The notes beneath the pieces are model-generated. The model did no database searches, had not been told where the DNA came from, and saw only the letters and a list, made by a program, of their open reading frames with translations. A DNA stretch of 64,000 bases from Escherichia coli (GTDB taxonomy: Bacteria > Pseudomonadota > Gammaproteobacteria > Enterobacterales > Enterobacteriaceae): assembly GCF_001677475.2 (NCBI RefSeq), contig NZ_CP015229.1, one strand, 5' to 3'. A program made the position numbers and the translations under genes. Positions 2,186-55,457 of this stretch are shown here, piece after piece. How positions within the stretch are numbered: the first letter of the stretch is position 1; the number at the start of each line of letters is the position of its first letter.

Positions 2186-3148
2186 TCACGCAGACTTCCT
2201 CAACCCCGCAAACGCCGCCCGAATCTCATCCTCCGGCAGCTGAATCCCGATAAACACCATCGTGCTATGCGGTTTTTCATCGCCCCACGGGCGGTCCCAG
2301 TCGGCGCTGTAGAGGCGCTGGACGCCCTGGAACAGCAGGCGGTTAGGTTCGCCGTCAATCCATAGCATCCCTTTGTAACGCAGCAGTTTATCCGCCGACT
2401 CCAGCAGCAGGTTTTCCATCACCCGGGAAACTTCGCTGATATCTACCGGGTAATCCAGTTCCACCACAATCGACGAAATATCGTTTTGTTTATCCGCGAT
2501 AAAGTGAAAACGTGGCTTGGTGCTGACGACGTTCTCTTCCAGCATAAAACCGTTGGTGTTGAACAGCAGGCCCAGGTCGATGTCGCCGTGGGTGACGGTG
2601 TAGACCGGTGCGCGGGCGTTGATGCGCGCCAGGCGTTCACGCAGTTTCTCTGCTTCGCCTGCGACGTCGGTTTTAGTCAGCAGAATACGGTCGGCGTAGC
2701 CAACCTGGGACTGGGCGATGGTGAACTGGTTCATCTGCTCATCGGCATGTACCGCATCCACCAGCGCAATCACGCCGTCCAGCAGGTAGCGCTGGCATAA
2801 AATCTCATGGGAGAAAAAGGTCTGAATAATCGGGCCGGGATCGGCCATGCCGGTGCATTCAATGACCAGACGGTCGAACTGAATATTGCCCTTGTCGAGA
2901 TTATCCAGCAGGTCGAGTAGCGCGTCTTCCAGCTCGTTGGAGCGCGAACAGCAGATGCAGCCGTTGGTCAGCGTTTTGATCTGCGTGGCGCGGTCGCCAA
3001 TCAGTTGATCATCAACGGAGACTTCGCCGAATTCGTTTTCAATCACGGCAATCTTGTAGCCGTGTTGTTCGTTAAGAATATGGCGCAACAGGGTGGTTTT
3101 GCCCGCGCCTAAAAAACCGGTGAGTAGGGTAACTGCAATCGGGTTCAT
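2186..3148 (-). CDS. yjiA: GTP-binding protein YjiA (CobW/P-loop GTPase family)
   Basis: ORF track 2186..3232; start set at internal Met giving MNPIAVTLLTGFLGAGKTTLL (Walker A), 318 aa as recalled for YjiA. Confidence 0.9.
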   Translation of the reverse strand: MNPIAVTLLTGFLGAGKTTLLRHILNEQHGYKIAVIENEFGEVSVDDQLIGDRATQIKTLTNGCICCSRSNELEDALLDLLDNLDKGNIQFDRLVIECTGMADPGPIIQTFFSHEILCQRYLLDGVIALVDAVHADEQMNQFTIAQSQVGYADRILLTKTDVAGEAEKLRERLARINARAPVYTVTHGDIDLGLLFNTNGFMLEENVVSTKPRFHFIADKQNDISSIVVELDYPVDISEVSRVMENLLLESADKLLRYKGMLWIDGEPNRLLFQGVQRLYSADWDRPWGDEKPHSTMVFIGIQLPEDEIRAAFAGLRKSA

Positions 3149-3158
3149 GCTCTCTCCA

Positions 3159-3362
3159 TTAACAACAGCGCATACCGCCTTTACCATCGCCGCCGTAGCG
3201 CGCGTTCTGGCGTTCGCGGAAGAATTCTTCATAGCTCATGTACGGCTTGTCGGGATGGTTGGTCTTCATATGCTCGACGTAGTTGTCGTAGTCTGGAATG
3301 CCAATCAACATCTTCGCCGCCTGGCCGAGATATTTTTTTGCCTGTCCTAAGTTACCAAACAT
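3159..3362 (-). CDS. yjiX: Small DUF466 protein YjiX (67 aa)
   Basis: ORF track 3159..3488; internal Met [17 protein letters not shown] matches YjiX as recalled; upstream part of ORF overlaps REP repeats. Confidence 0.8.
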
Positions 3363-3404
3363 TTTGCCTTCCAGATATGCGTAAAGCCCGGAAGGTCCGG
3401 GCTG

Positions 3405-3490
3405 GGGATTTGCCGGATGCGGCGTACACGCCTTATCCGGCCTACGATAGACACTTTGTAGGCCGGATACGCGCAGCGCATCCGGCAACC
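3405..3490. repeat. REP (repetitive extragenic palindrome) elements
   Basis: gccggatgcggcgtacacgccttatccggcctac and inverted copy gtaggccggatacgcgcagcgcatccggca. Confidence 0.8.
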
Positions 3491-3492
3491 GG

Positions 3493-5643
3493 TTAGTGGT
3501 GCGAAGAGATCTTCACGCCGCCTTCCGGGATTGGAACGTACGGCGTTTCTTTGTCAGTACGTTTGTCGCTGTTACGCACCTTCAGCCAGGTTTTGAAACC
3601 GTAGAAGATGATGCTGTACACCACAATCAGGAACAGAATACTCAGGCCTGCGTTGGTGTAGTTGTTCACAACGATGTGGTTCATGTTGGCAATCTGCTGC
3701 GCCGTCAGGTCAGTACCGTTAGCAATCTTCTCTTTGTACTGGCTTGCCATGTAGAAGAAGCCTTCCATCTGCGGGTTGGTGCTGAACAGTTTCAGACCCA
3801 GCGCCCAGGTGGTGCAGATAAGCAGCCATACCGCCGGAACAACAGTTACCCAGATGTATTGGGTGCGCTTCATCTTAATCAGCACAACGGTGCCCAGAAC
3901 CAGCGCTACGGCTGCCAGCATCTGGTTGGAGATACCGAACAGCGGCCACAGGCTCTTAACGCCGCCCAGCGGATCGACCACGCCCTGATACAGCAGGTAG
4001 CCCCACAGACCCACACAGCCCGCTGTACCGATGATACCGGCAACCAGAGAGTCGGTTTTTTTCAGGAACGGGATGAAGTTACCCAGCAGGTCTTGCAGCA
4101 TAAAGCGGCCAGAACGGGTACCGGCATCCAGCGCGGTCAGGATGAACAGGGCTTCGAACAGGATACCGAAGTGATACCAGAAGCCCATGTCAGCCATCGG
4201 CAGCACTTTGTGGAATACATGAGCGATACCTACCGCCAGCGTCGGCGCACCACCTGCACGGTTCAGGACAGAAGGCTCACCAATGTCTTTCGCGGTTTGC
4301 AGGATCTGCTCTGGCGAAATCACGAAGCCCCAGGAGCTGACAGTCGCCGCCGCGTGTGCGGTAACGTCTTTCAGCTGCGCCATGATGATTGGCGCGTTCT
4401 CGCCACCCATTTCATGCAGGTTAGGCATGGTGATGCCGAGGCCAGCAGGCGGGGTGTTCATCGCGAAGTAAAGACCCGGTTCGATGATGGACGCAGCAAC
4501 CAGCGCCATAATCGCCACGAAGGACTCCATCAGCATTGCGCCGTAGCCGATGAAACGCGCATCGGTTTCGTTAGCCAGCAGTTTCGGCGTCGTACCGGAA
4601 GAGATCAGCGCGTGGAAGCCAGATACCGCACCACAGGCGATGGTGATGAACAGGAACGGGAACAGAGCGCCTTTCCACAGCGGGCCAGTACCATCAATGT
4701 ACTGAGTCATCGCAGGCATTTTCAGTTCCGGGTTCAGCACCACGATACCCAGCGCCAGGCCGACGATAACGCCGATTTTCAGGAAGGTTGCCAGATAGTC
4801 GCGCGGTGCGAGGATCAGCCACACCGGCAGCAGTGCGGAAACAAACGCATAGCCAATCAGCGCGAAGGTAATGGTGGTGTCTTTAAAGGTCAGTGCCGGA
4901 CCCCAGTACGGATCGTGAGCAATCACGCCACCGAAGTAGATAGAGGCAACCAGCAGCACGATACCAATGACAGAGACTTCACCTACACGCCCCGGACGAA
5001 TAAAGCGCATGTAGATACCCATAAACAGCGCAATCGGTACGGTTGAGCAAACGGTGAAGACACCCCACGGACTTTCGGCCAGGGCTTTAACCACAATCAG
5101 CGCCAGGACGGCAAGGATGATGATCATGATTAAGAAACAGCCAAACAGCGCGATAGTCCCCGGTACTGGTCCCATCTCTTCTTTGATCATCTCACCGAGA
5201 GATGCGCCGTTACGGCGAGAGGAGATAAACAGCACCATAAAGTCCTGTACCGCACCGGCCAGCACTACCCCCGCCAGCAGCCACAGCGTGCCAGGCAGGT
5301 AGCCCATCTGCGCGGCGAGCACCGGACCAACCAGCGGACCGGCACCGGCGATAGCGGCGAAGTGGTGACCAAACAACACGTAACGGTTGGTCGGAACGTA
5401 GTTCAGACCGTCGTTGTTAATAACCGCAGGCGTCGCGCGCGTGGGGTCGAGTTTCATCACCTTCTGGGCGATGTACAGACTGTAGTAGCGATACGCCACC
5501 AGATACACCGACACAGAGGCGACCACGATCCACAGGGCGCTGACGTGCTCCCCCCGACGTAATGCAACTACCGCGAGGCAGAATGCACCGATGATTCCGA
5601 GAATCACCCAGGGTATGTGCTTGAATAGTTTTTTCGTATCCAT
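3493..5643 (-). CDS. btsT: Pyruvate/proton symporter BtsT (CstA family; YjiY)
   Basis: ORF track 3493..5658, 721 aa polytopic protein; start likely at [16 protein letters not shown]. Confidence 0.9.
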
Positions 5644-19045: not shown

Positions 19046-20407
19046 TTAATCTTTCCGTGGGTCGTTGATCGGCTGACGAACCAGGAAGATGTACGCCAGT
19101 GCCCCCGCTGCGGTGACGCAACCGCAGATGATTAGTGCCAGACGGAATGAGTGGGTGGTATCAACAATAAAACCAGTAATGATCGGCGCGAAAGAGGCGC
19201 AGATGAAGCTGGCAAAGTTCTGGATACTGCCCACCGACGCAGTCATGCGAGAAGCAACTGCGACGTGGATCAATCCCCAGCAGGATGTTCCTGCAAAGTG
19301 AATACAGAACAGTGCCATACCAATCAGCAGAACCGCTGTCATAGATGTTGTCGCTTGCGGTACGACCAGCGTAAAGGCGGCAGAACAGAACATCCCGGCA
19401 ATAATGCAGATCTTACGGCTTTTAATCGGAGCCATTCCCCCTTTGACCAGCCAGTCAGTAACGTAACCGTTGACCAGCATCCCGGCAGCCCCAAACAGGA
19501 AAGGGATAGCCGCCATCAACCCTGTGCTTTTTAAATCCAGGTTATAGGCTGTTTGCAGGTAACCAGGAAGCCAGGCCAGGTACAGCCACGCAGTGTAGTT
19601 GATGCCACTGAATCCGAGCATCATTCCCCACATTGTGCGGTTACGGAACAGGCTGCGCCATTCGGCAAAACTGAGCGGATCTCGGCGGGCATTGACACTA
19701 CCAGCATTGAGGTAAGCTTGTTCAACGGCAGTCAGTTCTACGTGCTCGCGGTTGCGATAGAGCATATACCAGCCAATGGCGAGAAAAATCCCCAGCACAC
19801 CAATGGTAATAAACATCCCACGCCAGCCCATCACCAGCATCATCGCCGCCAGAATCGGTGGGCTTACGGCAACGCCAATGGTAGAAGCTGCGTTGAAGAA
19901 GCCCATCGGGCGTCCGCGCTCTTTGATGTTGAACCAGTCATTAATGACTTTTACACCACATGGGTTCATCGGCGCTTCACCAATTCCCATACCGATACGC
20001 ACCAACACGAACTGCGTAAAGCTGTGCACCATGCCAGACATTGCCTGGAACAGTGACCAGAAGAACATCCCAAGTCCCAGCATCAGGCGCGGGCCTTTAC
20101 GATCCAATAGTGGGCCGCAAGGAAGTTGCGCAATCCCGTAAGCGAGTGAAAACACGGAGAGCAAAGCGCCGATTTCGGTGGCACTTAATCCCAATTCTTC
20201 ACGAATCGTTAAATTTGCTACCGACAGCGAACTGCGGTCGAGATAATTGATTACCGCCGCAAAAAATAATAACAACATGGCGGTGGTTTGAATGCGTTTA
20301 ATTCGGGTACTGCGTTGAACTAATCCATCTGGTGGCACGGGAATATCTGCCGACGAAGATGGAGTAAATGAAGAACGCGGATCGAGGGTGATATTTTCTT
20401 TTTCCAC
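19046..20407 (-). CDS. lgoT: L-galactonate MFS transporter LgoT (YjjL)
   Basis: ORF track 453 aa MFS protein; synteny tsr-yjjL-yjjM-yjjN. Confidence 0.85.
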   Translation of the reverse strand: MEKENITLDPRSSFTPSSSADIPVPPDGLVQRSTRIKRIQTTAMLLLFFAAVINYLDRSSLSVANLTIREELGLSATEIGALLSVFSLAYGIAQLPCGPLLDRKGPRLMLGLGMFFWSLFQAMSGMVHSFTQFVLVRIGMGIGEAPMNPCGVKVINDWFNIKERGRPMGFFNAASTIGVAVSPPILAAMMLVMGWRGMFITIGVLGIFLAIGWYMLYRNREHVELTAVEQAYLNAGSVNARRDPLSFAEWRSLFRNRTMWGMMLGFSGINYTAWLYLAWLPGYLQTAYNLDLKSTGLMAAIPFLFGAAGMLVNGYVTDWLVKGGMAPIKSRKICIIAGMFCSAAFTLVVPQATTSMTAVLLIGMALFCIHFAGTSCWGLIHVAVASRMTASVGSIQNFASFICASFAPIITGFIVDTTHSFRLALIICGCVTAAGALAYIFLVRQPINDPRKD

Positions 20408-20621
20408 GCCGGACTCCTGTATTTATAATTTTAATTGTTTACGTAATTGTGCATTACGCAAGGTTGACATTAACGGCAGGTTAAAGTTTTAGGACTTTAC
20501 TACCGCTCACAAAAACATTTTTAGTCGACTGATTGTGAGCATAGGTAAGCGGGAATTTCCCGGTATTTATCTTTTGATAAAACCGTGCACCCGCTAATAG
20601 TTTGCTGTTTTTAATCCGTAC

Positions 20622-21536
20622 TTAATGAGCATAACGCGTGTTCTCATTAATGGATCGAATCATTGATTGTTTAGCTGAATTCAAATGGTTACGGAGCGCA
20701 AGGGTGGCATCAAGGTCACTGCGGCAAATCAGAGCGCTGAGAATGGTCATATGCTCATCGACGGCAATGATATTGCGCTGTTTAAGATCGCTTTCGTCCC
20801 ATTGATAGTGAAAATGAAAGATGACTGAGATGATCTCAAGCGATTGATCAAAAAAGATATTGTCGGCAGCTGAAAGCAGTAAGGAGTGAAAATCTCTGTC
20901 AAGTTGCGAGAACATGCGAAAGCTATTGCCGATGTTGTCACGCAGTAGCCGATGACGTTCGAGCATGGTTTTCGCCTGCAGCCAGCGGGGATCATGATCA
21001 GGCAGGTTGAGAAAGTGCTGAAGTGAATGTGTTTCGAGCATTTCGCGTAGCTCAAACAGCTGCTCGGCGTAGGATTGATCGAATTGTTTCATGCTCCACT
21101 GGCCGCGCTTTTCGCTTTGAATAAGATTATAACGGCCGAATTTTAAAAGATATTCTCTTACTACAACCGGGCTGACACCCGCGGCCCGAGCCAGTTGCAG
21201 TTCAGAAAAAGTTTCCCCAGGGCGTAACTGACGCTGGTTTATCATCGTGAAAAAAGCCTGCTCAAACACTTTGTTTTGTTCACTCATTGAAGCGGTAGTA
21301 CAGGCGAAACCGTCATCATGGTCAGGTTTACGCGCAATAACATAGTCGTTTCCAACCTGCGTTAAGACGCCGCATTCGCGTAAGTGGCTGAGAATATGAC
21401 GCACTGTAGTGCGGCTGATGTTGTACATTTCCGCCAGCGCACTTTGCGATGGAAGTGGGGAAGGGATATGACCCCGCGCCATATCATCAATGACCTGGTT
21501 AATCACATTGTGGCGTAAATTTTGTGAACGACTCAT
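20622..21536 (-). CDS. lgoR: GntR-family regulator LgoR (YjjM)
   Basis: ORF track 304 aa; N-terminal GntR HTH; synteny. Confidence 0.85.
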   Translation of the reverse strand: MSRSQNLRHNVINQVIDDMARGHIPSPLPSQSALAEMYNISRTTVRHILSHLRECGVLTQVGNDYVIARKPDHDDGFACTTASMSEQNKVFEQAFFTMINQRQLRPGETFSELQLARAAGVSPVVVREYLLKFGRYNLIQSEKRGQWSMKQFDQSYAEQLFELREMLETHSLQHFLNLPDHDPRWLQAKTMLERHRLLRDNIGNSFRMFSQLDRDFHSLLLSAADNIFFDQSLEIISVIFHFHYQWDESDLKQRNIIAVDEHMTILSALICRSDLDATLALRNHLNSAKQSMIRSINENTRYAH

Positions 21537-31764: not shown

Positions 31765-31851
31765 TGGTGCGAGGGGGGGGACTTGAACCCCCACGTCCGT
31801 AAGGACACTAACACCTGAAGCTAGCGCGTCTACCAATTCCGCCACCTTCGC
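31765..31851 (-). tRNA. leuV: tRNA-Leu (anticodon CAG)
   Basis: Reverse complement reads GCGAAGGTGGCGGAATTGGTAGACGCGCTAGCTTCAGGTGTTAGTGTCCTTACGGACGTGGGGGTTCAAGTCCCCCCCCTCGCACCA; encoded CCA. Confidence 0.95.
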
Positions 31852-31885
31852 ACAGTCATCTTACTTTTTTTGATATCGCCTCGTT

Positions 31886-31972
31886 TGGTGCGAGGGGGGG
31901 GACTTGAACCCCCACGTCCGTAAGAACACTAACACCTGAAGCTAGCGCGTCTACCAATTCCGCCACCTTCGC
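31886..31972 (-). tRNA. leuP: tRNA-Leu (anticodon CAG), one-base variant in variable arm
   Basis: Same 87-nt tRNA with aagaacac instead of aaggacac on plus strand. Confidence 0.95.
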
Positions 31973-32000
31973 CCAGTGCGAGCAATATCAACGTGGTTTT

Positions 32001-32087
32001 TGGTGCGAGGGGGGGGACTTGAACCCCCACGTCCGTAAGGACACTAACACCTGAAGCTAGCGCGTCTACCAATTCCGCCACCTTCGC
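32001..32087 (-). tRNA. leuQ: tRNA-Leu (anticodon CAG)
   Basis: Third tandem copy identical to the first. Confidence 0.95.
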
Positions 32088-32192
32088 ATACCGTCAATTC
32101 TTAAAAAGAATTGCTACCACGGAGGCGCATTCTAGTGGTTTTCAGCTTTTCGTCAATAGTTAATTATCGCCGGAGGTGTAATTGCTGGAAAA

Positions 32193-32387
<195 letters not shown>

Positions 32388-35427: not shown

Positions 35428-36663
35428 ATGGCGCTGTCTGATGCGTGGTTGCGTTCAGTCGTTGGAAAGGAACGTGATAAGGTTTTGGTTAAATCCGATC
35501 GTGATGGTCTGTCTGTCAGAGTATCACCGAAAGGTCGCGTAGTGTTCCAATATCGTTATCAATGGGCAGGGAAAGGTGAGCGCCTTGATATCGGAACTTA
35601 CCCGGCAACTGGATTAAAAGAGGCCAGAGAAGAAGTTATCCGTCTCCGTGGTGAACTCGAGTCAAACCGCAATCCACGATTAGTCAAGCAGGCTGAAAAA
35701 CGAAAAGCTACTGAAGCCATGACGGTAGAGTCTGTGATCCGTGCCTGGTATGAAGCATATTGTGTAAAAAATAAAAAAGGTTCTGAACAGATACTCCGCT
35801 CGTTTGAGCTGCACCTGTTCTCTAAAATCGGGAATATCCCTCACGATGCAGCTACATTGCATGATTGGTTAGAAGTCCTGGAGCCTCTTAGCACCAAGAC
35901 TCCAGCAATAGTAGACCGATTGCTAATTAACGCAAAGCAGGCTCATGTCTGGGCGTATAAGAGAAAGCTCATTGAAACTCGCCCACTGTCGGATATCACG
36001 GGTAAAGATATGGATATCCGTAAAGGTCAGAAAAAACGGTTTCTGACACATGATGAAATTAACATCCTTTATGCTGCGATCGATGGTTCTCGAATGGTTC
36101 CTAAATACCGAGCCTTCATTAAACTATTGCTGCATTTTGGTTGCCGTAGTTCAGAGCTAATTACTGCTAGGGTGGATGATTTTGATTTCATAAATAAGGT
36201 ATGGACTGTACCACCAGAACGACATAAGACTGGGGACATAACAGGCGAACCGCTAAAGCGGCCCATTATTGAACCGGTTGAAGAGCTTATAAAATACGTT
36301 ATCTCTATGAACAACGGTTCCGATATGCTTTTTACTAAGGAAGGAAGCAGGGAGCCAGTTGGTCGGACATCATTGCAGTCGCTGCCTTACAATTTAATGC
36401 AGTTCGCATGGCGACGTTTGGGGTATCAATTTCCTCATTGGTCTCTTCATGATTTGAGACGAACAGCACGAACAAACTTTTCTGATCTTACTGCTCCTCA
36501 TATTGCTGAAATAATGCTTGGTCATAAACTGCCAGGTGTATGGCAAGTTTATGATAAGAGCGATTATCTAGAAGAACAGCGTAAAGCTTACTGGGCATGG
36601 TGGGAGAGGGTTGAATCGATCGTTACTTGTACTGACTTAATCTCCAACGGACAGTTTGCGTAG
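35428..36663 (+). CDS. int: Phage tyrosine integrase
   Basis: ORF track 411 aa; C-terminal catalytic region with HDLRRTARTN and LGH..VYD motifs; RBS AAGGTGAG. Confidence 0.85.
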   Translation: MALSDAWLRSVVGKERDKVLVKSDRDGLSVRVSPKGRVVFQYRYQWAGKGERLDIGTYPATGLKEAREEVIRLRGELESNRNPRLVKQAEKRKATEAMTVESVIRAWYEAYCVKNKKGSEQILRSFELHLFSKIGNIPHDAATLHDWLEVLEPLSTKTPAIVDRLLINAKQAHVWAYKRKLIETRPLSDITGKDMDIRKGQKKRFLTHDEINILYAAIDGSRMVPKYRAFIKLLLHFGCRSSELITARVDDFDFINKVWTVPPERHKTGDITGEPLKRPIIEPVEELIKYVISMNNGSDMLFTKEGSREPVGRTSLQSLPYNLMQFAWRRLGYQFPHWSLHDLRRTARTNFSDLTAPHIAEIMLGHKLPGVWQVYDKSDYLEEQRKAYWAWWERVESIVTCTDLISNGQFA

Positions 36664-39947: not shown

Positions 39948-40310
39948 TTAATGACCTGCTGCGCGGAGTTTTCCGTCAGGTTCACCGGCAAGAGTCAGTA
40001 ATTGTCCCTGGTCTTCCTGCAGAATAGTCAGGCGACCACCGCGATTGACATACATCGGCGTTTCGGTGGTGTCTTCTTCGGAAATTTTCCCGCGGTTAGT
40101 CGGGCGAACATATGAGAGTTTGTGTTTGATTTTCACACGGTTCTCATCAAATGGTTCGATTTCCAGGTTGAGTGAGACCTTACCTTTGGTTTTCGTGTTC
40201 ATCACACCTGAAGCGACTTCACTGAGAACTGCGCCGATTTTGGTTTCAAATACGCCGCCGTCCAGCTCCCCGATAAATGCCTGCACATCAGTACTGCGTT
40301 CGCTAGCCAT
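39948..40310 (-). CDS. Hypothetical prophage protein (YfdP-like, 120 aa)
   Basis: ORF track 39948..40496; internal ATG with GAGGAGCAGCAA RBS gives MASERSTDVQAFIGELDGGVFETK... Confidence 0.45.
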   Translation of the reverse strand: MASERSTDVQAFIGELDGGVFETKIGAVLSEVASGVMNTKTKGKVSLNLEIEPFDENRVKIKHKLSYVRPTNRGKISEEDTTETPMYVNRGGRLTILQEDQGQLLTLAGEPDGKLRAAGH

Positions 40311-40990
40311 TTTGCTGCTCCTCATCATATCGACCCTGCAAGGTCGGTTGGTTTCTCCACAAAACAGAGAAGAACACCTGCGGTGGCAGCCGCCCGGATG
40401 GATTGGGTTATGAGCCCGTCGTCCGGTGATGCTCTTCTCTGTTTTGTAAAAAGAGCGGTACCAGCCGGAAGCAAGTGTACAAACTGGTACCGCCAAAGCA
40501 GTGGCTGTTGTGGTGACCGGTGCTGATCTCCGGCTTGCGGTTATTTCAGACTCTCACGGGTGTTTAATTGCCCCGCCGAACAGCTCTTTTCCGCAATAGC
40601 TGCAATGTCTTTCGCGCATCAGCCTGCGCATTCACCACAACGCTGAGAGCACTTAGCCAGTTACGGCACCACACTTTGTCGCGGTTCCATAAATGCCCTC
40701 ATCGTTGCACCCTGGTCTCTTCCCAGGTGTCAAACCGAACCGCCACGCTGGTTAGGCGTCTTATCAGCATCATCATTGACTTGCACATTCCGGCTACCTG
40801 GTTTGTTTGCCCGAGCAAGGAGTGGATTGTCCCCTTTAACGTCCCCAGACCGCTAACGACGCATGTGCCATACGCCGTGTTACAACCAAATTTTGTTAGT
40901 ACCTTGTTTGTTGGTCTGGAAAGAAAGATAAAATGAAGTTGCGCATTATGCAAGTGTTTTTGTTGCGAGATATGCAATTTGATGGGTAAT

Positions 40991-41012
40991 GAAAAGCCAC
41001 CTTCGGGTGGCT
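40991..41012 (-). terminator. Putative intrinsic terminator downstream of cI
   Basis: agccacc-ttcg-ggtggct hairpin followed on minus strand by T-run. Confidence 0.5.
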
Positions 41013-41032: not shown

Positions 41033-41725
41033 TTAATTGTGTCGCTTAAGGGTTTGTGACTGGCTGATTAAGACCTTTCCAAAGACCATAAACCGGTGTT
41101 CATTTTCGCTGGTAATTCCCCATTCACGGTAAATCTGGTTATCAGAAATCACCAGTAGTTTGTCAGGTATCATTTGCAGTCGTTTGACATAAATTTTATC
41201 ATCAAAACCAAATACATAGATACCATCTCCATCAAACTGATTGATACTGACATCAACGAAGATGAGATCTCCTGGCTCAATGGTTGGACACATACTGTCC
41301 CCACGAACGTTGATTACTTTAATGTGATTTGCTGGCCGTCCGCCAAACATCGATACAGCATTATCAGTTCTGTATTCAATGGCATGAATCACATCAATGA
41401 CATCACCGCCCTGGATAAGGCCATTTCCCGCACTGGCACTGATATCCAGCATTTCAATACGGAATACATCCTTCACCTGCGCAACATCCTCACTAATACT
41501 GTTTTTACATACAGTATTACTTTTGAAGTCTGAGGTAAAGAGATCAGCAATATCAACACCTAAGCTCCTGGCAATATTACTCAGGGCTTGTTCAGTGAAT
41601 TGTTTCTGCTTACCTGTTTCCAGGCGCGAGATATTTGCCGCATCCACTCCTATTGCTTCAGCGAGATCGGCGATTTTCATGTTCTTCGCTTGGCGAAGTT
41701 GTCTGACTCGATTTCCTATGTTCAT
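41033..41725 (-). CDS. cI: CI-like phage repressor (XRE HTH + S24 LexA-like peptidase domain)
   Basis: ORF track 230 aa; N-terminal HTH VRQLRQAKNMKIADLAEAIGVDAANISRLETGK; C-terminal GDSMCPTIEPGD..KRL. Confidence 0.85.
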   Translation of the reverse strand: MNIGNRVRQLRQAKNMKIADLAEAIGVDAANISRLETGKQKQFTEQALSNIARSLGVDIADLFTSDFKSNTVCKNSISEDVAQVKDVFRIEMLDISASAGNGLIQGGDVIDVIHAIEYRTDNAVSMFGGRPANHIKVINVRGDSMCPTIEPGDLIFVDVSINQFDGDGIYVFGFDDKIYVKRLQMIPDKLLVISDNQIYREWGITSENEHRFMVFGKVLISQSQTLKRHN

Positions 41726-41822
41726 GCGTTTATTACATTTCTTTATTGCGCGTTAAGCAAATCAACTTGCGCAAAATATTTGCGTGAAATAATATGCTCA
41801 TCACGCAATATGTGGAGGTTAT
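41726..41822. promoter_or_regulatory. Immunity-region divergent promoters/operators between cI and cro
   Basis: Repeated TTGCGC/GCGCAA half-sites and inverted repeat ttgcgtga-N13-tcacgcaa. Confidence 0.55.
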
Positions 41823-42083
41823 ATGCAATCACCATTACGGAATGTGCGTAAAGCGCACGGATTTACTTTGCAGCATGTTGCTGCTGGCGTTCAGGTCAAT
41901 CCAGCGACGCTGAGTCGTATTGAAAGACTGGAACAAATTCCATCTATCGAGCTTGCAGAACGTCTGGCCAATTTTTTTAAGGGTGAAATCAGCGAAATGC
42001 AGATTCTTTATCCGGCACGTTTTCAATCTAGCCAAAACCAGAATGGGTTTAAACCACAGGAACAGGAGATAAGCCGTGGGTAA
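41823..42083 (+). CDS. cro: Cro-like HTH regulator
   Basis: ORF track 86 aa; HTH AHGFTLQHVAAGVQVNPATLSRIER; divergent from cI. Confidence 0.75.
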   Translation: MQSPLRNVRKAHGFTLQHVAAGVQVNPATLSRIERLEQIPSIELAERLANFFKGEISEMQILYPARFQSSQNQNGFKPQEQEISRG

Positions 42084-42627
42084 GCATCACTGGAAAGTGG
42101 AAAAACAGCCTGAGTGGTACGTGAAAGCTGTCAGAAAAACTATCGCGGCGTTGCCGGGGGGTTACGCTGAAGCTGCTGAGTGGCTGGATGTAACAGAGAA
42201 CGCTTTATTCAACCGCCTTCGTGCAGATGGCGATCAGATTTTCCCGCTGGGATGGGCAATGATTTTACAGCGCGCTGCTGGCACTCACTACATTGCGGAT
42301 GCTGTCGCACAGTCTGCTGGTGGGGTGTTTGTATCGCTTCCTGAAATTGAGGAAGTAGAGAACGCCGATATAAACCAGCGCCTGCTGGAAGTCATCGAAC
42401 AAATCGGGAGTTACTCAAAGCAGATTCGTTCGGCAATCGAAGATGGGGTAGTGGAGCCACACGAGCAGACAGCAATTAATGATGAGTTGTATCTGTCGAT
42501 TTCGAAGCTCCAGGAGCATGCGGCACTGGTCTACAAAATTTTCTGCGCTCCAGAAAAGAGTGACGCCCGCGAGTGTGCAGCTCCGGGCGTCGTGGCGTTT
42601 TGTGTCTGTGGAGAAACTAACGCATGA
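42076..42627 (+). CDS. Putative CII-like early regulatory protein
   Basis: ORF track 183 aa directly after cro; family assignment is a guess. Confidence 0.35.
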   Translation: MGKHHWKVEKQPEWYVKAVRKTIAALPGGYAEAAEWLDVTENALFNRLRADGDQIFPLGWAMILQRAAGTHYIADAVAQSAGGVFVSLPEIEEVENADINQRLLEVIEQIGSYSKQIRSAIEDGVVEPHEQTAINDELYLSISKLQEHAALVYKIFCAPEKSDARECAAPGVVAFCVCGETNA

Positions 42628-42952
42628 ACAGTTTAACGGCAAATAACCGTTTGTCGCAACAGCTGGTGGTCAGCGTCTCTGAACACCTGTTGTTACGGCA
42701 TGAATGCAGATTACCAAATCACCAGGCTGTAAGTAACCACAGAGAACTTTACCTGACTGTGGGGGGCGAGTTGTGCAGGAACTTAACCGCTGGTTTCGTG
42801 ACGGAAGAGGGCTTTATGTTCATGTTATTCGTTGGGAACCAGAAACACAGCGCGTTATCTATCTTCGCAAAGACTACCCGCATGAGTGCTTTAGTCCTTT
42901 GTGGAAATTCAGGCGTGATTTTGTTGAGTGTGACGGACCACCAACACATTGA
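42624..42952 (+). pseudogene. Putative frameshifted early gene (~109 aa if restored) interrupted at a G6 tract
   Basis: ATG at 42624 overlaps upstream stop (ATGA); at G-run 42761-42766 the protein-like reading moves to another frame (VQELNRWFRDGRGLYVHVIRWEPETQRVIYLRKDYPHE...) ending TGA 42950-42952. Confidence 0.35.
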
Positions 42953-43229
42953 TTCTGCCATTCCGGGACGTTACACTGTTCAGGCACCTTATAAAACGGG
43001 TGCCGGGCGTGGAAACCCGGAATTCACCAAAGCGCACAACCGCGCTCTTGCGGTTTTTTTGTGTCATGAGCAGCATTACGCCCAAATTATGGTGGGGCGT
43101 GCAGGGCCAACTTCGGTTGGGCCGGGTTCTTTGGTGACCGGTATTTCCACCCCTGTACGTCTCACCACCAATAAGGTCGTGGAAAGCCTTGGTGGTGAGT
43201 TATTAAAAATCACCAAAGAGGCTGCCATC

Positions 43230-43775
43230 ATGGCTACGATCCCAACCCTCACTCAACCTGAAATTGCCATCGTTGATGGTCAGGTTGTTACTTCATCCCT
43301 GGCTGTTGCCAACTTCTTCTCCAAACGTCATGACGATGTACTGAAAAAGATCCGCACGCTTGAATGCTCAGCATCATTCACTGCCCGCAATTTTTCGGTG
43401 AGTGATTACACTGATTGCACAGGTCGCAAACTTCATTGCTACCAAATCACACGCGACGGTTTTGCGTTTCTTGCTATGGGTTTCACGGGTAAACGTGCTG
43501 CCCAGTTCAAAGAGGCATATATCAATGCCTTTAACCAGATGGAGAAACAGCTTTCAAAGCCCGCTGTACCGAGCGACGTTGCACATAACGCCAGCGTTCT
43601 CTGTTCCTACATTTCATCAATTCATCAGGTCTGGCTGCAGCAGCTTTATCCTATGTTGGCAAAAGCCGAATCTCCGCTGGCTGTTAGCTTATATGATTAT
43701 ATTAATGATGCTTCGGCGCTGGCCTGCCTCATAAATTTGTCGCTGAACCCTTCAGAGGTAAGGGGGCGCAAATGA
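43230..43775 (+). CDS. rha: Rha-family phage regulatory protein
   Basis: In-frame ATG with AAGAGG RBS inside ORF-track 42624..43775; MATIPTLTQPEIAIVDGQVVTSSLAVANFFSKRHDDVLKKI matches Rha domain. Confidence 0.65.
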   Translation: MATIPTLTQPEIAIVDGQVVTSSLAVANFFSKRHDDVLKKIRTLECSASFTARNFSVSDYTDCTGRKLHCYQITRDGFAFLAMGFTGKRAAQFKEAYINAFNQMEKQLSKPAVPSDVAHNASVLCSYISSIHQVWLQQLYPMLAKAESPLAVSLYDYINDASALACLINLSLNPSEVRGRK

Positions 43776-51294: not shown

Positions 51295-51594
51295 AAAAAT
51301 TCCTTAATACTGATAACTTGGCGCACTATACACACGTTCCTGAAGAAAGCTATAGTTTTTTGATGGGGTTGAAGATGGCTGGATGTCTAAAATAAACATT
51401 GCTTCATATGTTCAACTATGCGTTAATGATTGCGTCGGTTTGAAGAACAGACGATATACGAAGTAGTTTACTAAAGCAGTTCTCATTTCAGGTGTTATTC
51501 ACTTATTCCTTCTTTGAGTCTCTCCAATTAAGTACGAAGTCGTTTCTGTTATACAAGCCATTTATGCCGAAAGGCTCAAGTTAAGGAATGTAGA

Positions 51595-51810
51595 ATGTCA
51601 AATAAAATGACTGGTTTAGTAAAATGGTTTAACGCTGATAAAGGTTTTGGCTTTATTTCTCCTGTTGATGGTAGTAAAGATGTGTTTGTGCATTTTTCTG
51701 CGATTCAGAATGATAATTTTCGAACCTTATTTGAAGGTCAAAAGGTTACCTTCTCTGTAGAGAGTGGTGCTAAAGGTCCTGCAGCAGCAAATGTCATAAT
51801 TACTGATTAA
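51595..51810 (+). CDS. cspB: Cold-shock protein, CspB-like
   Basis: ORF track 71 aa; [38 protein letters not shown]; divergent from cspF as in Qin. Confidence 0.85.
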
Positions 51811-52093
51811 AATTAATAGTTTGTCTGTATACGATAACGAAGAAGGCTGATGCCTGAGTGGAGATACAGACAGAGTGGTGAATATTGGATCTCTTTAATA
51901 AATAGTAAGGAGATCCAATACATGAAACAATGGCCAGCATATTTGGCAATAACTTAATCAGGAAAAGTATGCTAACCATTGTGGTGAAGTGCAGGTTTGC
52001 TGCATGAATAGTTTTACAGCAGAAGCTAACTGCTAGCATAGCAAAACAAAGTGCGTAAGTGGATGACTCCCACAAAAAGCACCACAATATTAA

Positions 52094-54683: not shown

Positions 54684-55045
54684 ATTAATATTAAATCGGA
54701 TTATTTTTAGCGCTGAATGTGAAATTTAAATAAAAAGGACTCTTCCATGAGTCAAAATCCTTGAAATCTTAAGGGTAAGATAAAAGGTCATTAGACAGAA
54801 TGACACGTTTTATTAATAAATAAAGCTATTGTTTCATTCGTGTGTTTTTCTTTACAAAAGTAATCCTTGCTATGGTTGGTTAATCATGCGTTAATGGTGT
54901 TCTGGTTTGTTACAAAATTATCTGAAGCAGTCATTGTTATAATTTTATTATTTGTACCTCTTGAGATTTCCTTGTTGGTTTTTCTCTCTGATATTTTTTT
55001 CGGACCATTCTGCCCAAGGGCTAACTTCTTCAAAAGGTAATAATG

Positions 55046-55258
55046 ATGTCTAACAAAATGACTGGTTTAGTGAAATGGTTTAACCCTGAAAAAGGTTTTG
55101 GTTTCATCACGCCGAAAGATGGTAGCAAAGATGTGTTTGTCCATTTCTCAGCTATTCAGAGCAACGATTTCAAAACGTTAACTGAGAATCAGGAAGTCGA
55201 ATTTGGTATTGAGAACGGACCTAAAGGCCCCGCGGCTGTTCATGTTGTGGCACTTTGA
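55046..55258 (+). CDS. cspI: Cold-shock protein, CspI-like
   Basis: ORF track 55043..55258; [45 protein letters not shown]. Confidence 0.85.
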
Positions 55259-55457
55259 GGTAGAAAATATTACAAACCATATTCACTTTAGATGCCCGTG
55301 TTGCCATGGTTCTCAGTATAGAACATCATCTTTTGATGTTTCTGACAGGAATCCTTTCGGGGCAAAATGTATCTTTTGTAAATCAATGATGATTACATTT
55401 GATAATATTTCACAATACTTAAATGTTAGCCGTCTGTCGTTAGATTTAAGAAAGTGA
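55242..55457 (+). CDS. Hypothetical small zinc-ribbon protein overlapping cspI 3' end
   Basis: ORF track 55203..55457; internal Met gives [26 protein letters not shown]...CIFCKS. Confidence 0.3.

What the first reader, a model, noticed from the sequence alone, without database searches (positions are those of the whole stretch)
41726..41822. cI/cro divergent switch with repeated GCGCAA-type half-sites
The 97-bp interval between the S24-peptidase repressor and cro contains several TTGCGC/GCGCAA half-sites and an 8-bp-arm inverted repeat. These are candidate operators defining this prophage's immunity specificity.
Basis: seen in the sequence. Interest (0 to 1): 0.3.

Follow-up and report, generated by a model that had tools for sequence, protein, structure and literature searches.

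The report
Prophage repressor operators, redefined and extended
The gap between this E. coli prophage's repressor and cro genes does carry repressor-binding half-sites, but comparison with relatives points to 15-bp TTGC-N7-GCAA dyads as the real operators: two in the gap, two behind the repressor gene and one inside cro, making this an ordinary lambda-type switch whose specificity has not been studied.

Summary
The interval 41726-41822 is exactly the 97-bp gap between an HTH+S24 repressor (41033-41725, -) and an HTH cro (41823-42083, +). It holds five TTGCGY hexamers against about 0.12 expected, and a perfect 8-bp inverted repeat.

Comparison with about 170 related loci (27 control-region variants under 92% identical) shows the conserved unit is a 15-bp dyad, (T/A/G)TGCG-N5-CGCA(A/T/C), with invariant arms and a free centre.

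- **In the gap:** two full sites, L (41746-60) and R (41794-41808).
- **Outside the gap:** three more. An OL pair lies just past the repressor terminator (40939-53, 40963-77). Site C lies in cro codons 8-12 (41844-58), and codon usage shows DNA-level selection on it.
its left arm (41780-87) is not conserved, so the repeat is not the operator unit.

The sites overlap predicted PR, a PRM that would give a leaderless cI mRNA, and PL.

This is the immunity region of mEp460, SfII, Stx2a_1447 and (more distantly) ST64B, present in about 19% of complete E. coli genomes. I found no experimental work on it. All evidence is computational.

It is a new member of a known kind, of modest interest.

The parts
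41033..41725 (-). CI-type repressor, 230 aa. N-terminal Cro/C1 (434-like) HTH and C-terminal S24 autopeptidase. Ala99-Gly100, Ser144 and Lys181 are in the LexA-like positions.
   Evidence: Pfam matches. Best solved relatives are dh434 for the N-terminal domain and UmuD' for the C-terminal domain. SAG and GDSM align with P22 C2 and with lambda CI's GNSM.
41823..42083 (+). Cro-like HTH_3 protein, 86 aa, with SD GGAGG at 41814-18. Its recognition helix ATLSRIE resembles CI's ANISRLE.
41746..41760 (.). Operator L (OR3-like), TTGCGCGTTAAGCAA. It is centred about -28 from the predicted PRM start, and its right half doubles as the PRM -35.
   Evidence: Exact TTGC-N7-GCAA match. PWM score 17.4 from held-out sites. 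Arms invariant in 27 representatives.
41794..41808 (.). Operator R (OR1-like), ATGCTCATCACGCAA. It overlaps the last 2 bp of the PR -10 and the predicted PR start.
   Evidence: PWM score 15.3. ATGC and CGCA arms invariant, always 48 bp from L.
41767..41774 (.). Invariant core TTGCGCAA. It is the PR -35 (TTGCGC, 41767-72) and the surviving half-site of a middle operator. That operator is near-consensus in relatives but decayed here.
   Evidence: 2.0 bits per column. The middle site M2 scores up to 12.5 in relatives and -8.8 in the window; M1 scores -3.7 here.
41844..41858 (.). Site C, GTGCGTAAAGCGCAC, an operator-like dyad that exactly spans cro codons 8-12, 50 bp right of R.
   Evidence: PWM score 11.6-12.4. 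The codon test shows arm third positions fixed while the same amino acids elsewhere use many codons.
40939..40953 (.). OL1, TTGCGCATTATGCAA. It is the best-scoring site in the window, and its right half is the PL -35 (TTGCAT on the - strand).
   Evidence: (score 21.1).
40963..40977 (.). OL2, TTGCGAGATATGCAA, 24 bp from OL1.
   Evidence: score 19.3. 113 of 119 distinct OL regions have two sites 22-24 bp apart.
41767..41795 (+). Predicted PR: -35 TTGCGC (41767-72), 17-bp spacer, -10 TAATAT (41790-95). The start is expected at about 41800-41803.
   Evidence: Read from the sequence. The -35 and the TA..AT of the -10 are invariant in relatives. The simple consensus scan did not report it.
41732..41760 (-). 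Predicted PRM: -35 TTGCTT (41760-55), 17-bp spacer, -10 TGTAAT (41737-32). The A of the cI ATG (41725) is the 7th base after the -10, and no SD precedes it, so the cI mRNA would be leaderless.
   Evidence: Sequence. ATTACA is conserved at a fixed distance from the ATG. This is an inference; the start site is not mapped.
40925..40953 (-). Predicted PL: -35 TTGCAT (40953-48), 17-bp spacer, -10 TATCTT (40930-25).
   Evidence: AAGATA is conserved at a fixed distance from OL1 in at least 80% of 27 representatives.
40995..41012 (-). Intrinsic terminator after the repressor gene, separating it from OL.
   Evidence: SfII annotates a terminator in the same place.
41780..41808 (.). Its right arm is part of operator R. 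Its left arm TTGCGTGA is a half-site found only in the window/mEp460/SfII clade and has no supported function.

Best explanation
This is the immunity (lysis-lysogeny) control region of a lambdoid prophage of the mEp460/SfII/Stx2a_1447 immunity type.

**Operators.** The repressor is a 434-like HTH fused to a LexA-like self-cleaving domain. It most likely binds as a dimer to 15-bp dyads, (T/A/G)TGCG-N5-CGCA(A/T/C). The 5-bp arms are contacted and the centre is free, as in 434 and P22.

**Sites in this phage (five strong):**
- R overlaps the -10 and start of PR and shuts off cro and the early right operon.
- L overlaps the -35 and spacer of PRM and would give negative autoregulation. It may be the preferred Cro site, as OR3 is in lambda.
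- OL1 and OL2, 24 bp apart immediately after the cI terminator, cover PL.
- Site C, inside cro codons 8-12 and 50 bp downstream of R, is a further binding site. It probably acts as a roadblock or as an anchor for repressor-repressor contacts.

**Promoters.** In each of the three promoters the -35 hexamer is itself an operator half-site (TTGCxx). The cI mRNA from PRM is predicted to be leaderless.

**Other components.** Cro has a similar recognition helix and presumably uses the same sites. RecA-stimulated cleavage at Ala99-Gly100 would induce the prophage.

**Shown versus inferred.** Shown: site positions, their conservation, codon-level constraint, and the protein domains. Inferred: binding itself, the order of occupancy, transcription start sites, and the role of C.
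For: - **Genes and domains:**
- **Exact matches in the window:** three of the seven exact TTGC-N7-GCAA matches in 64 kb flank the repressor gene.
- **Fixed positions in relatives:** the same five sites sit at the same positions in mEp460, SfII, ST64B, two Klebsiella phages, Flotzy and phiNP (repressors 67-99% identical). Their centres differ. L-R spacing is 48 bp in all, including ENT47670 and Yersinia 30.14 at 48-50% identity.
- **Held-out PWMs:** PWMs built only from relatives rank 40939, 40963, 41746 and 41794 as four of the top five or the top four positions of the whole window. The null expectation for score >= 14 is 0.9 per 64 kb.
- **Column conservation:** the arms, the promoter hexamers and CTTGCGCA are at or near 2 bits. 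Site centres score 0.4-1.4 and 41775-89 scores 0.3-1.2.
- **OL:** 113 of 119 distinct OL regions have two sites 22-24 bp apart.
- **Site C:** Leu is always TTG (46/46), Val GTG (14/14), Ser TCG (45/45), Ala GCG (15/15) and Arg always CGN. The same residues at nearby codons use 4-6 different codons.
- **Shared recognition helix:** CI and Cro both carry an x-(N/T)-x-S-R-x-E helix.
Against: - There is no binding, footprint or transcript-start data for any member of this group.
- The window has only two full sites in OR, 48 bp apart (about 4.6 helical turns), so lambda-style adjacent cooperativity at OR cannot be assumed.
- By PWM score L (17.4) beats R (15.3). That is the opposite of what stable repression of PR ahead of PRM would need, if PWM score tracked CI affinity.
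- The consensus scan did not call the PR and PRM I propose. It found a different weak leftward candidate, TCCACA-16-TATTAT.
- The sequences compared are related, so conservation counts are not independent events.
- Site C scores lower (11.6) and is absent from the two most distant relatives that share the motif.
Confidence: 0.8

Rival explanations
1. The operators are the TTGCGC/GCGCAA hexamers and the long inverted repeat TTGCGTGA-N13-TCACGCAA, confined to the 97-bp gap. The 29-bp repeat is one binding unit, or a cruciform or hairpin.
For: The repeat is perfect over 8 bp. As RNA it folds at -9.3 kcal/mol, z = -3.0. TTGCG at 41780-84 is retained in all near-identical copies of this clade, while neighbouring bases vary.
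Against: - The left arm is not conserved outside the closest clade (CTGTATGA, TAGCGTAG, ACTACACA), and 41775-89 is the most variable part of the gap.
- In SfII (91% identical) the arms shrink to 5 bp.
- The half-site centres are 24 bp apart, not the 10 bp seen at every conserved site.
- The predicted PR start (about 41801) lies inside the repeat, so the left arm would not be in the cro mRNA.
- Equally good sites lie outside the gap.
Confidence: 0.08
2. The conserved TTGC elements are only promoter -35 hexamers and related RNA-polymerase signals. The dyads are not repressor sites.
For: In all three predicted promoters the -35 coincides with a TTGCxx half-site. The invariant TTGCGC at 41767-72 is a plausible PR -35.
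Against: - R (at the PR start), OL2 (upstream of the PL -35) and C (inside cro) are not at -35 positions, yet they keep both arms.
- The second, symmetric arm (GCAA) is as conserved as the first.
- A -35 hexamer does not explain fixed synonymous positions in cro codons 8 and 11.
Confidence: 0.04
3. The dyads are real protein-binding sites, but their main ligand is not CI. It would be Cro alone, or another phage HTH protein such as the YmfL/CP76 cII-like or the Rha-family protein.
For: Cro carries a similar recognition helix. No experiment assigns the sites to CI. The highest-scoring OR site (L) overlaps PRM, as expected for a Cro-preferred site.
Against: - The site layout (over PR, PL and PRM, flanking the repressor gene) is the classic CI layout.
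- When the repressor's DNA-binding domain diverges, the predicted sites change at the same positions (Fels-1: ATGT-N7-ACAT).
- From memory, 186-type CII proteins use widely spaced half-sites at the -35 of establishment promoters, not such dyads.
Confidence: 0.08

Closest known systems
Phage lambda OR/OL-CI-Cro switch
   Same: - Divergent cI and cro genes with a gap of about 100 bp (97 bp here, 100 bp in lambda).
- A repressor made of an HTH plus a LexA-like self-cleaving domain.
- Back-to-back PR and PRM.
- An operator over the PR start, an operator over PRM, and an OL pair 24 bp apart (lambda OL1-OL2 is also 24 bp).
- A predicted leaderless cI mRNA.
   Different: - The operators are 15-bp TTGCG-N5-CGCAA dyads, not 17-bp TATCACCGC-type sites. 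The motif is absent from lambda's operators.
- The repressor is not alignable with lambda CI outside the catalytic motif.
- This phage has only two full OR sites, 48 bp apart.
- OL sits directly after cI, with no rex genes between.
- There is an extra site inside cro.
- The cII is of the CP76/YmfL type.
434 and P22 c2 repressor-operator systems
   Same: - The DNA-binding domain is 434-like (best solved match dh434, E = 2e-4).
- P22 C2 aligns over both domains at 24% identity, including the Ala-Gly and GDSM motifs.
- The operator design is the same: short conserved arms with a variable, presumably non-contacted centre. That 434 and P22 work this way is from memory.
   Different: - The sequence and length differ. 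434's ACAA-N6-TTGT has no match in the window.
- P22's operator region has no TTGC-N7-GCAA site.
Stx phage 933W switch
   Same: It is a lambdoid Stx-phage switch with only two OL sites and non-canonical cooperativity. PMC5977221 states that 933W lacks OL3 and does not bind OR1 and OR2 cooperatively. The present immunity type also occurs on Stx2a and Stx2k phages.
   Different: The repressor and operator sequences are different. 933W has three OR sites. Nothing has been measured for the present type.
TP901-1 / phi13 CI with OL, OR and OD operators
   Same: Three related palindromic operator locations, including one downstream of the lytic promoter (PMC11149083). From memory, OD lies within the early lytic gene. 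That parallels site C inside cro.
   Different: These are Gram-positive phages. The TP901-1 CI has a different C-terminal domain and uses Mor instead of a DNA-binding Cro. There is no sequence relationship.
Relatives with the same geometry: ST64B, phiNP, Flotzy, Klebsiella Kp4873-4/P7641, ENT47670, Fels-1
   Same: The gene order is the same and the 15-bp site geometry sits at the same offsets (L-R 48 bp). ENT47670 and Yersinia 30.14 use ATGCG/TTGCG arms.
   Different: - Many relatives keep a third, middle OR site (for example TTGCGCAATTCGCTA) that has decayed in the window clade.
- Fels-1 has switched to ATGT-N7-ACAT.

Membership tests
Lambdoid CI/Cro immunity switch (LexA-like self-cleaving repressor) | Divergently transcribed repressor and cro genes separated by a short control region | tested here: met
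   A 97-bp gap between 41725 and 41823. Domains confirmed.
Lambdoid CI/Cro immunity switch (LexA-like self-cleaving repressor) | Repressor made of an N-terminal HTH plus a C-terminal S24 peptidase with an Ala-Gly cleavage site and a Ser/Lys dyad | tested here: met
   Peptidase_S24 at 6.6e-19 plus HTH families. SAG and GDSM align with P22 C2 and lambda CI. Lys181 sits 37 residues after Ser144, by inspection of the sequence.
Lambdoid CI/Cro immunity switch (LexA-like self-cleaving repressor) | Several related dyad operators overlapping the divergent promoters | tested here: met
   L and R with conserved arms and variable centres overlap the predicted PRM and PR. This is sequence evidence only.
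Lambdoid CI/Cro immunity switch (LexA-like self-cleaving repressor) | A second operator cluster (OL) at the early leftward promoter | tested here: met
   OL1 and OL2 at 40939-77. Two sites are present in 113 of 119 distinct relatives. The PL -10 is conserved.
Lambdoid CI/Cro immunity switch (LexA-like self-cleaving repressor) | Three adjacent OR operators about 23-24 bp apart, allowing pairwise cooperativity | tested here: not met
   The window has two full sites 48 bp apart. The middle candidates score -3.7 and -8.8. Relatives reach 12.5-15.1.
Lambdoid CI/Cro immunity switch (LexA-like self-cleaving repressor) | Demonstrated repressor and Cro binding, bistability and SOS induction | not testable with these tools
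   This needs footprinting, reporter assays and induction assays.
Immunity group of phage lambda | 17-bp lambda-type operators and a lambda-like CI | tested here: not met
   The cI-cro gaps of the two phages share no operator sequence. CI is alignable only at the catalytic Ser motif, E = 0.25.
Immunity group of P22 (immC) and of 434 | P22 18-bp operators, or the 434 pattern ACAA-N6-TTGT | tested here: not met
   The P22 operator region has no TTGC-N7-GCAA site, and C2 is 24% identical. The 434 pattern has no match in the window.
mEp460 / SfII / Stx2a_1447 immunity type (uncharacterised) | A near-identical repressor and an identical operator set | tested here: met
   The repressor is 97-100% identical to PhiR63_1, mEp460, 1720a-02, Stx2a_1447/WGPS2 and SfII. 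The control regions align without gaps and have the same sites.

The most novel reading that the evidence does not exclude
The conserved dyad inside cro (site C, 41844-58) is a genuine repressor operator. Together with R (50 bp upstream) and the OL pair (about 850 bp away), it would form a multi-point repressor complex that brackets the PR start. That would be an OD-like intragenic operator of the kind known from TP901-1-type Gram-positive phages, which to my knowledge has not been described for lambdoid coliphages. In the window clade, which has lost the middle OR operator and weakened R, this contact may be what keeps PR shut.
Probability: 0.35. Interest if true: 0.45.

Novelty: new member of a known kind. 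Interest (0 to 1): 0.28.

Why it matters
This immunity region is common. At least 80% of the 1.7-kb cI-cro-cII segment is found in 1027 of 5426 complete E. coli genomes. It also sits on Shiga-toxin phages (Stx2a_1447, Stx2a_WGPS2, phiSTEC1575-Stx2k, 1720a-02) and on the Shigella serotype-converting phage SfII.

For Stx phages the repressor-operator design sets how easily the prophage is induced, and therefore how much toxin is made (PMC5977221). No operator set has been described for this type in the literature I could search.

A concrete, testable operator model gives a starting point for three things:
- footprinting;
- predicting cross-immunity among the many phages that share the TTGCG arms;
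- annotation, since the motif would mark the immunity regions of this family.

It does not change how such switches are understood.

Tried and rejected
- **Perfect palindrome CGCAAAATATTTGCG (41770-84).** It lies exactly 24 bp from both L and R and looked like a middle operator. I rejected it because the half-sites face outward and it is absent from ST64B, the Klebsiella phages, Flotzy and phiNP.
- **Middle operator candidates M1 (41760-74) and M2 (41767-81).** Neither passes in the window (-3.7 and -8.8). M2 is near-consensus in many relatives and M1 in one lineage, so a third operator exists in the family but has decayed here.
- **29-bp units TTGCG-N19-CGCAA (41746-74 and 41780-41808) and the 32-nt-arm imperfect palindrome.** These are explained by the layout of L, the core and R. 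The inner parts are not conserved.
- **RNA hairpin as the reason for site C.** The hairpin is -8.2 kcal/mol here but only -4.0 (z = -1.0) in ST64B, and positions 1 and 15 do not covary.
- **Lambda CII-type TTGC-N6-TTGC direct repeats (from memory) and LexA boxes.** The spacing and orientation do not fit.
- **The scan's leftward promoter TCCACA-16-TATTAT.** Its -35 is not conserved in ST64B.
- **First IMG/VR scan.** It returned only 99-100% identical copies, so it added no diversity. A second scan seeded with Flotzy's repressor gave the diversity used.
- **Script to extract CI N-termini.** It mis-framed most sequences. Only the Cro set and a few CI sequences from it are used.
- **Literature searches.** Searches for mEp460, ST64B, ymfK, the motif itself and Stx-phage regulatory regions found no operator description for this type. 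Two searches failed on term length.

Full report
**1. Observation**

The interval 41726-41822 is exactly the gap between the start codon of a leftward 230-aa ORF (41033-41725) and the ATG of a rightward 86-aa ORF (41823-42083).

- The first ORF matches Peptidase_S24 (6.6e-19) and several Cro/C1 HTH families. The second matches HTH_3.
- A CP76/YmfL-type cII-like gene and a Rha-family gene follow.
- The gap contains TTGCGC at 41746 and 41767, GCGCAA at 41769, TTGCGT at 41780 and ACGCAA ending at 41808.
- It also contains a perfect 8-bp inverted repeat, TTGCGTGA (41780-87) / TCACGCAA (41801-08).
- TTGCGY occurs only 77 times in the whole window on both strands. Five hits in 97 bp compare with about 0.12 expected.

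**2. Identity**

- The 1.7-kb cI-cro-cII segment is 100% identical to Escherichia phage PhiR63_1.
- It is about 97% identical to mEp460, phiSTEC1575-Stx2k, 1720a-02 and Stx2a_1447/WGPS2, 91% to Shigella phage SfII, and 73.5% to Salmonella phage ST64B.
- At least 80% of the segment is present in 1027 of 5426 complete E. coli genomes.
- From PhiR63_1 coordinates the prophage begins near window 35196, with the integrase at 35428-36663.

**3. What the operators are**

Reading outward from the gap, I noticed that TTGCGCGTTAAGCAA (41746-60) has the form TTGC-N7-GCAA. Two more exact copies lie 24 bp apart just beyond the repressor gene's terminator: TTGCGCATTATGCAA at 40939-53 and TTGCGAGATATGCAA at 40963-77. 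These are three of only seven exact matches in 64 kb. A one-mismatch copy, ATGCTCATCACGCAA, lies at 41794-41808, 48 bp from the first.

Relatives carry the same sites at the same offsets with different central bases.
- These relatives are mEp460, SfII, ST64B, Klebsiella phages Kp4873-4 and P7641, Escherichia phage Flotzy and Citrobacter phage phiNP, with repressors 67-99% identical.
- They also share a fifth site 50 bp right of R, inside cro. In the window it is GTGCGTAAAGCGCAC at 41844-58.
- Cronobacter ENT47670 and Yersinia vB_YenM_30.14 (48-50% identical) keep L and R 48 bp apart with ATGCG/TTGCG arms.
- Fels-1 (51%) has ATGT-N7-ACAT sites in the same geometry.

The comparison was then broadened.
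- A second IMG/VR scan seeded with the Flotzy repressor brought the total to about 170 loci, with 87 distinct control regions and 27 representatives under 92% identical.
- Per-column information is at or near 2.0 bits for the arms of L (41746-50, 41757-60) and R (41794-97, 41804-07), for CTTGCGCA (41766-73), for TA..AT of the proposed PR -10, and for most of ATTACA (41732-37).
- It is 0.4-1.4 bits in the site centres and 0.3-1.2 bits across 41775-89.
- 113 of 119 distinct OL regions have two exact-format sites 22-24 bp apart.

Position weight matrices built only from relatives' sites recover the window's sites.
- One used 17 sites and one used 100. The window's own sites were excluded.
- 40939, 40963, 41746 and 41794 rank as four of the top five and as the top four positions of the whole window.
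- About 0.9 positions per 64 kb are expected by chance at score >= 14.

**4. Site C inside cro**

The site coincides exactly with cro codons 8-12. Among 62 distinct sequences:

| Codon | Inside site C | Comparison codons in the same sequences |
|---|---|---|
| 8 | always xTG: Leu TTG 46/46, Val GTG 14/14, Met 2 | Leu at codons 5 and 16 uses five or six codons; Val at codons 19 and 23 uses all four |
| 11 | xCG in 61 of 62: Ser TCG 45/45, Ala GCG 15/15, Thr ACG 1, one exception TTG | Ser at codons 3 and 17 uses three or four codons; Ala at codon 20 uses all four |
| 9 | Arg always CGN | Arg at codon 6 is AGA or AGG in 36 of 62 |

Third positions in the site's centre (codons 9 and 10) vary freely. 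This contrast is made within the same set of sequences, so relatedness cannot explain it. It points to selection on the DNA arms.

An RNA hairpin is a poor alternative. It folds at -8.2 kcal/mol here but only -4.0 (z = -1.0) in ST64B, and positions 1 and 15 do not covary.

**5.

- The repeat's right arm is simply the right arm of R.
- Its left arm, TTGCGTGA, is confined to the window/mEp460/SfII clade. It becomes CTGTATGA in ST64B, TAGCGTAG in the Klebsiella phages and ACTACACA in Flotzy. In SfII the arms shrink to 5 bp.
- The invariant core TTGCGCAA (41767-74) is the left half of a middle site (M2). M2 is near-consensus in many relatives, for example TTGCGCAATTCGCTA at score 12.5, but scores -8.8 in the window.
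- The overlapping alternative M1 scores 15.1 in one lineage and -3.7 here.

This phage's OR therefore has two full operators plus leftover half-sites.

**6. Promoters and mechanism (inferred)**

| Promoter | -35 | Spacer | -10 | Predicted start |
|---|---|---|---|---|
| PR | TTGCGC, 41767-72 | 17 bp | TAATAT, 41790-95 | about 41800-41803 |
| PRM (- strand) | TTGCTT, 41760-55 | 17 bp | TGTAAT, 41737-32 | A of the cI ATG, 41725 |
| PL (- strand) | TTGCAT, 40953-48 | 17 bp | TATCTT, 40930-25 | about 40918 |

- R therefore covers the -10 and the start of PR.
- For PRM, the A of the cI ATG is the seventh base after the -10 and no Shine-Dalgarno sequence precedes it. The cI mRNA would be leaderless, as in lambda. 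In P22 the annotated RM start is 4 nt from c2.
- L is centred at about -28 of PRM, and OL1 at about -28 of PL.
- The PL -10 is conserved in at least 80% of representatives.
- In each promoter the -35 is an operator half-site.

On the protein side:
- The repressor's SAG (Ala99-Gly100) and GDSM (Ser144) align with those of P22 C2 and lambda CI, so RecA-dependent induction is expected.
- CI and Cro share a similar recognition helix, ANISRLE and ATLSRIE, with pairwise E = 1e-5. The same helix motif appears in the CI sequences read and across the family's Cro proteins.

**7. Comparison with known systems**

- The layout is lambda-like: a 97-bp gap against 100 bp, and an OL pair 24 bp apart as in lambda.
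- The DNA-binding domain is 434-like.
- The motif is absent from the operator regions of lambda and P22, and the 434 pattern is absent from the window.
- Two OL sites recall 933W, which lacks OL3 (PMC5977221).
- An operator downstream of the lytic promoter recalls OD of TP901-1 (PMC11149083). That OD lies within the early lytic gene is from memory.
- I found no description of operators for this immunity type. A 2025 paper calls the specificity of another mEp460-named repressor unknown (PMC12315714), but that is a different protein group.

**8. Caveats**

- Everything here is computational.
- The related sequences are not independent.
- The consensus scan did not call the PR and PRM I propose.
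- By PWM score L outranks R in this phage. This fits badly with simple lambda logic unless L is mainly a Cro site or PWM score does not track CI affinity.

**9. Verdict**

This is a real and well-supported operator system of a known kind, in a common but unstudied immunity group.

Noticed in passing
window 42984-43060 and 43085-43172 (+), inside ORF 42624-43775: Rfam finds an isrK Hfq-binding RNA (67.9 bits) and a C4 antisense RNA (83.6 bits) inside the 383-aa ORF that public records annotate as one Rha protein. The ORF's Pfam 'Ash' match (aa 117-213) overlaps them. This looks like a P1-c4/IsrK-type antisense-controlled antirepressor module just after cII, that is, a possible second immunity layer. 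The annotated N-terminus of Rha is doubtful.
   Followed up: partly
window 40310-40918: About 600 bp lie between the predicted PL start (about 40918, leftward) and the first annotated leftward gene (yfdP-like). Public records annotate only small + strand ORFs here (for example 40568-40936), and they run against PL. No N-like gene or nut/put RNA was identified.
   Followed up: no
window 20447-20461 (host DNA): TTGTGCATTACGCAA scores 14-16 with the operator matrix, fifth best in the window. It sits 40 bp upstream of an MFS transporter gene (19046-20407, -) and next to a GntR/FCD regulator gene (20622-21536, -). About 0.9 such hits are expected by chance, so it may be chance or the host regulator's own site. 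A prophage-repressor target in the host is not excluded.
   Followed up: partly
L001 (mEp460, JQ182728) 3035-3682: GenBank starts the mEp460 repressor at the internal Met16, which removes helix 1 of the HTH domain. SfII and PhiR63_1 use the longer start, which the Pfam alignment supports.
   Followed up: yes
L088 (Fels-1) and L089 (ENT47670) control regions: Fels-1 and ENT47670 have nearly the same recognition helix (VGNISRLERG and VGNLSRLERG) but different predicted half-sites (ATGT against ATGCG) in the same 15-bp geometry. The residues that set specificity may therefore lie outside the recognition helix. ENT47670's two OL sites abut, 15 bp apart.
   Followed up: partly
window 51434-51873 and 54889-55304 (+): Two cspA thermoregulator matches (159 and 111 bits) lie in the prophage's later region, implying phage-borne cold-shock-protein genes.
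   Followed up: no
window 31768-32309: Three tandem tRNA genes with identical scores (31768-32087, -) and a naRNA4 element (32227-32309) lie about 3 kb left of the prophage end at about 35196.
   Followed up: no
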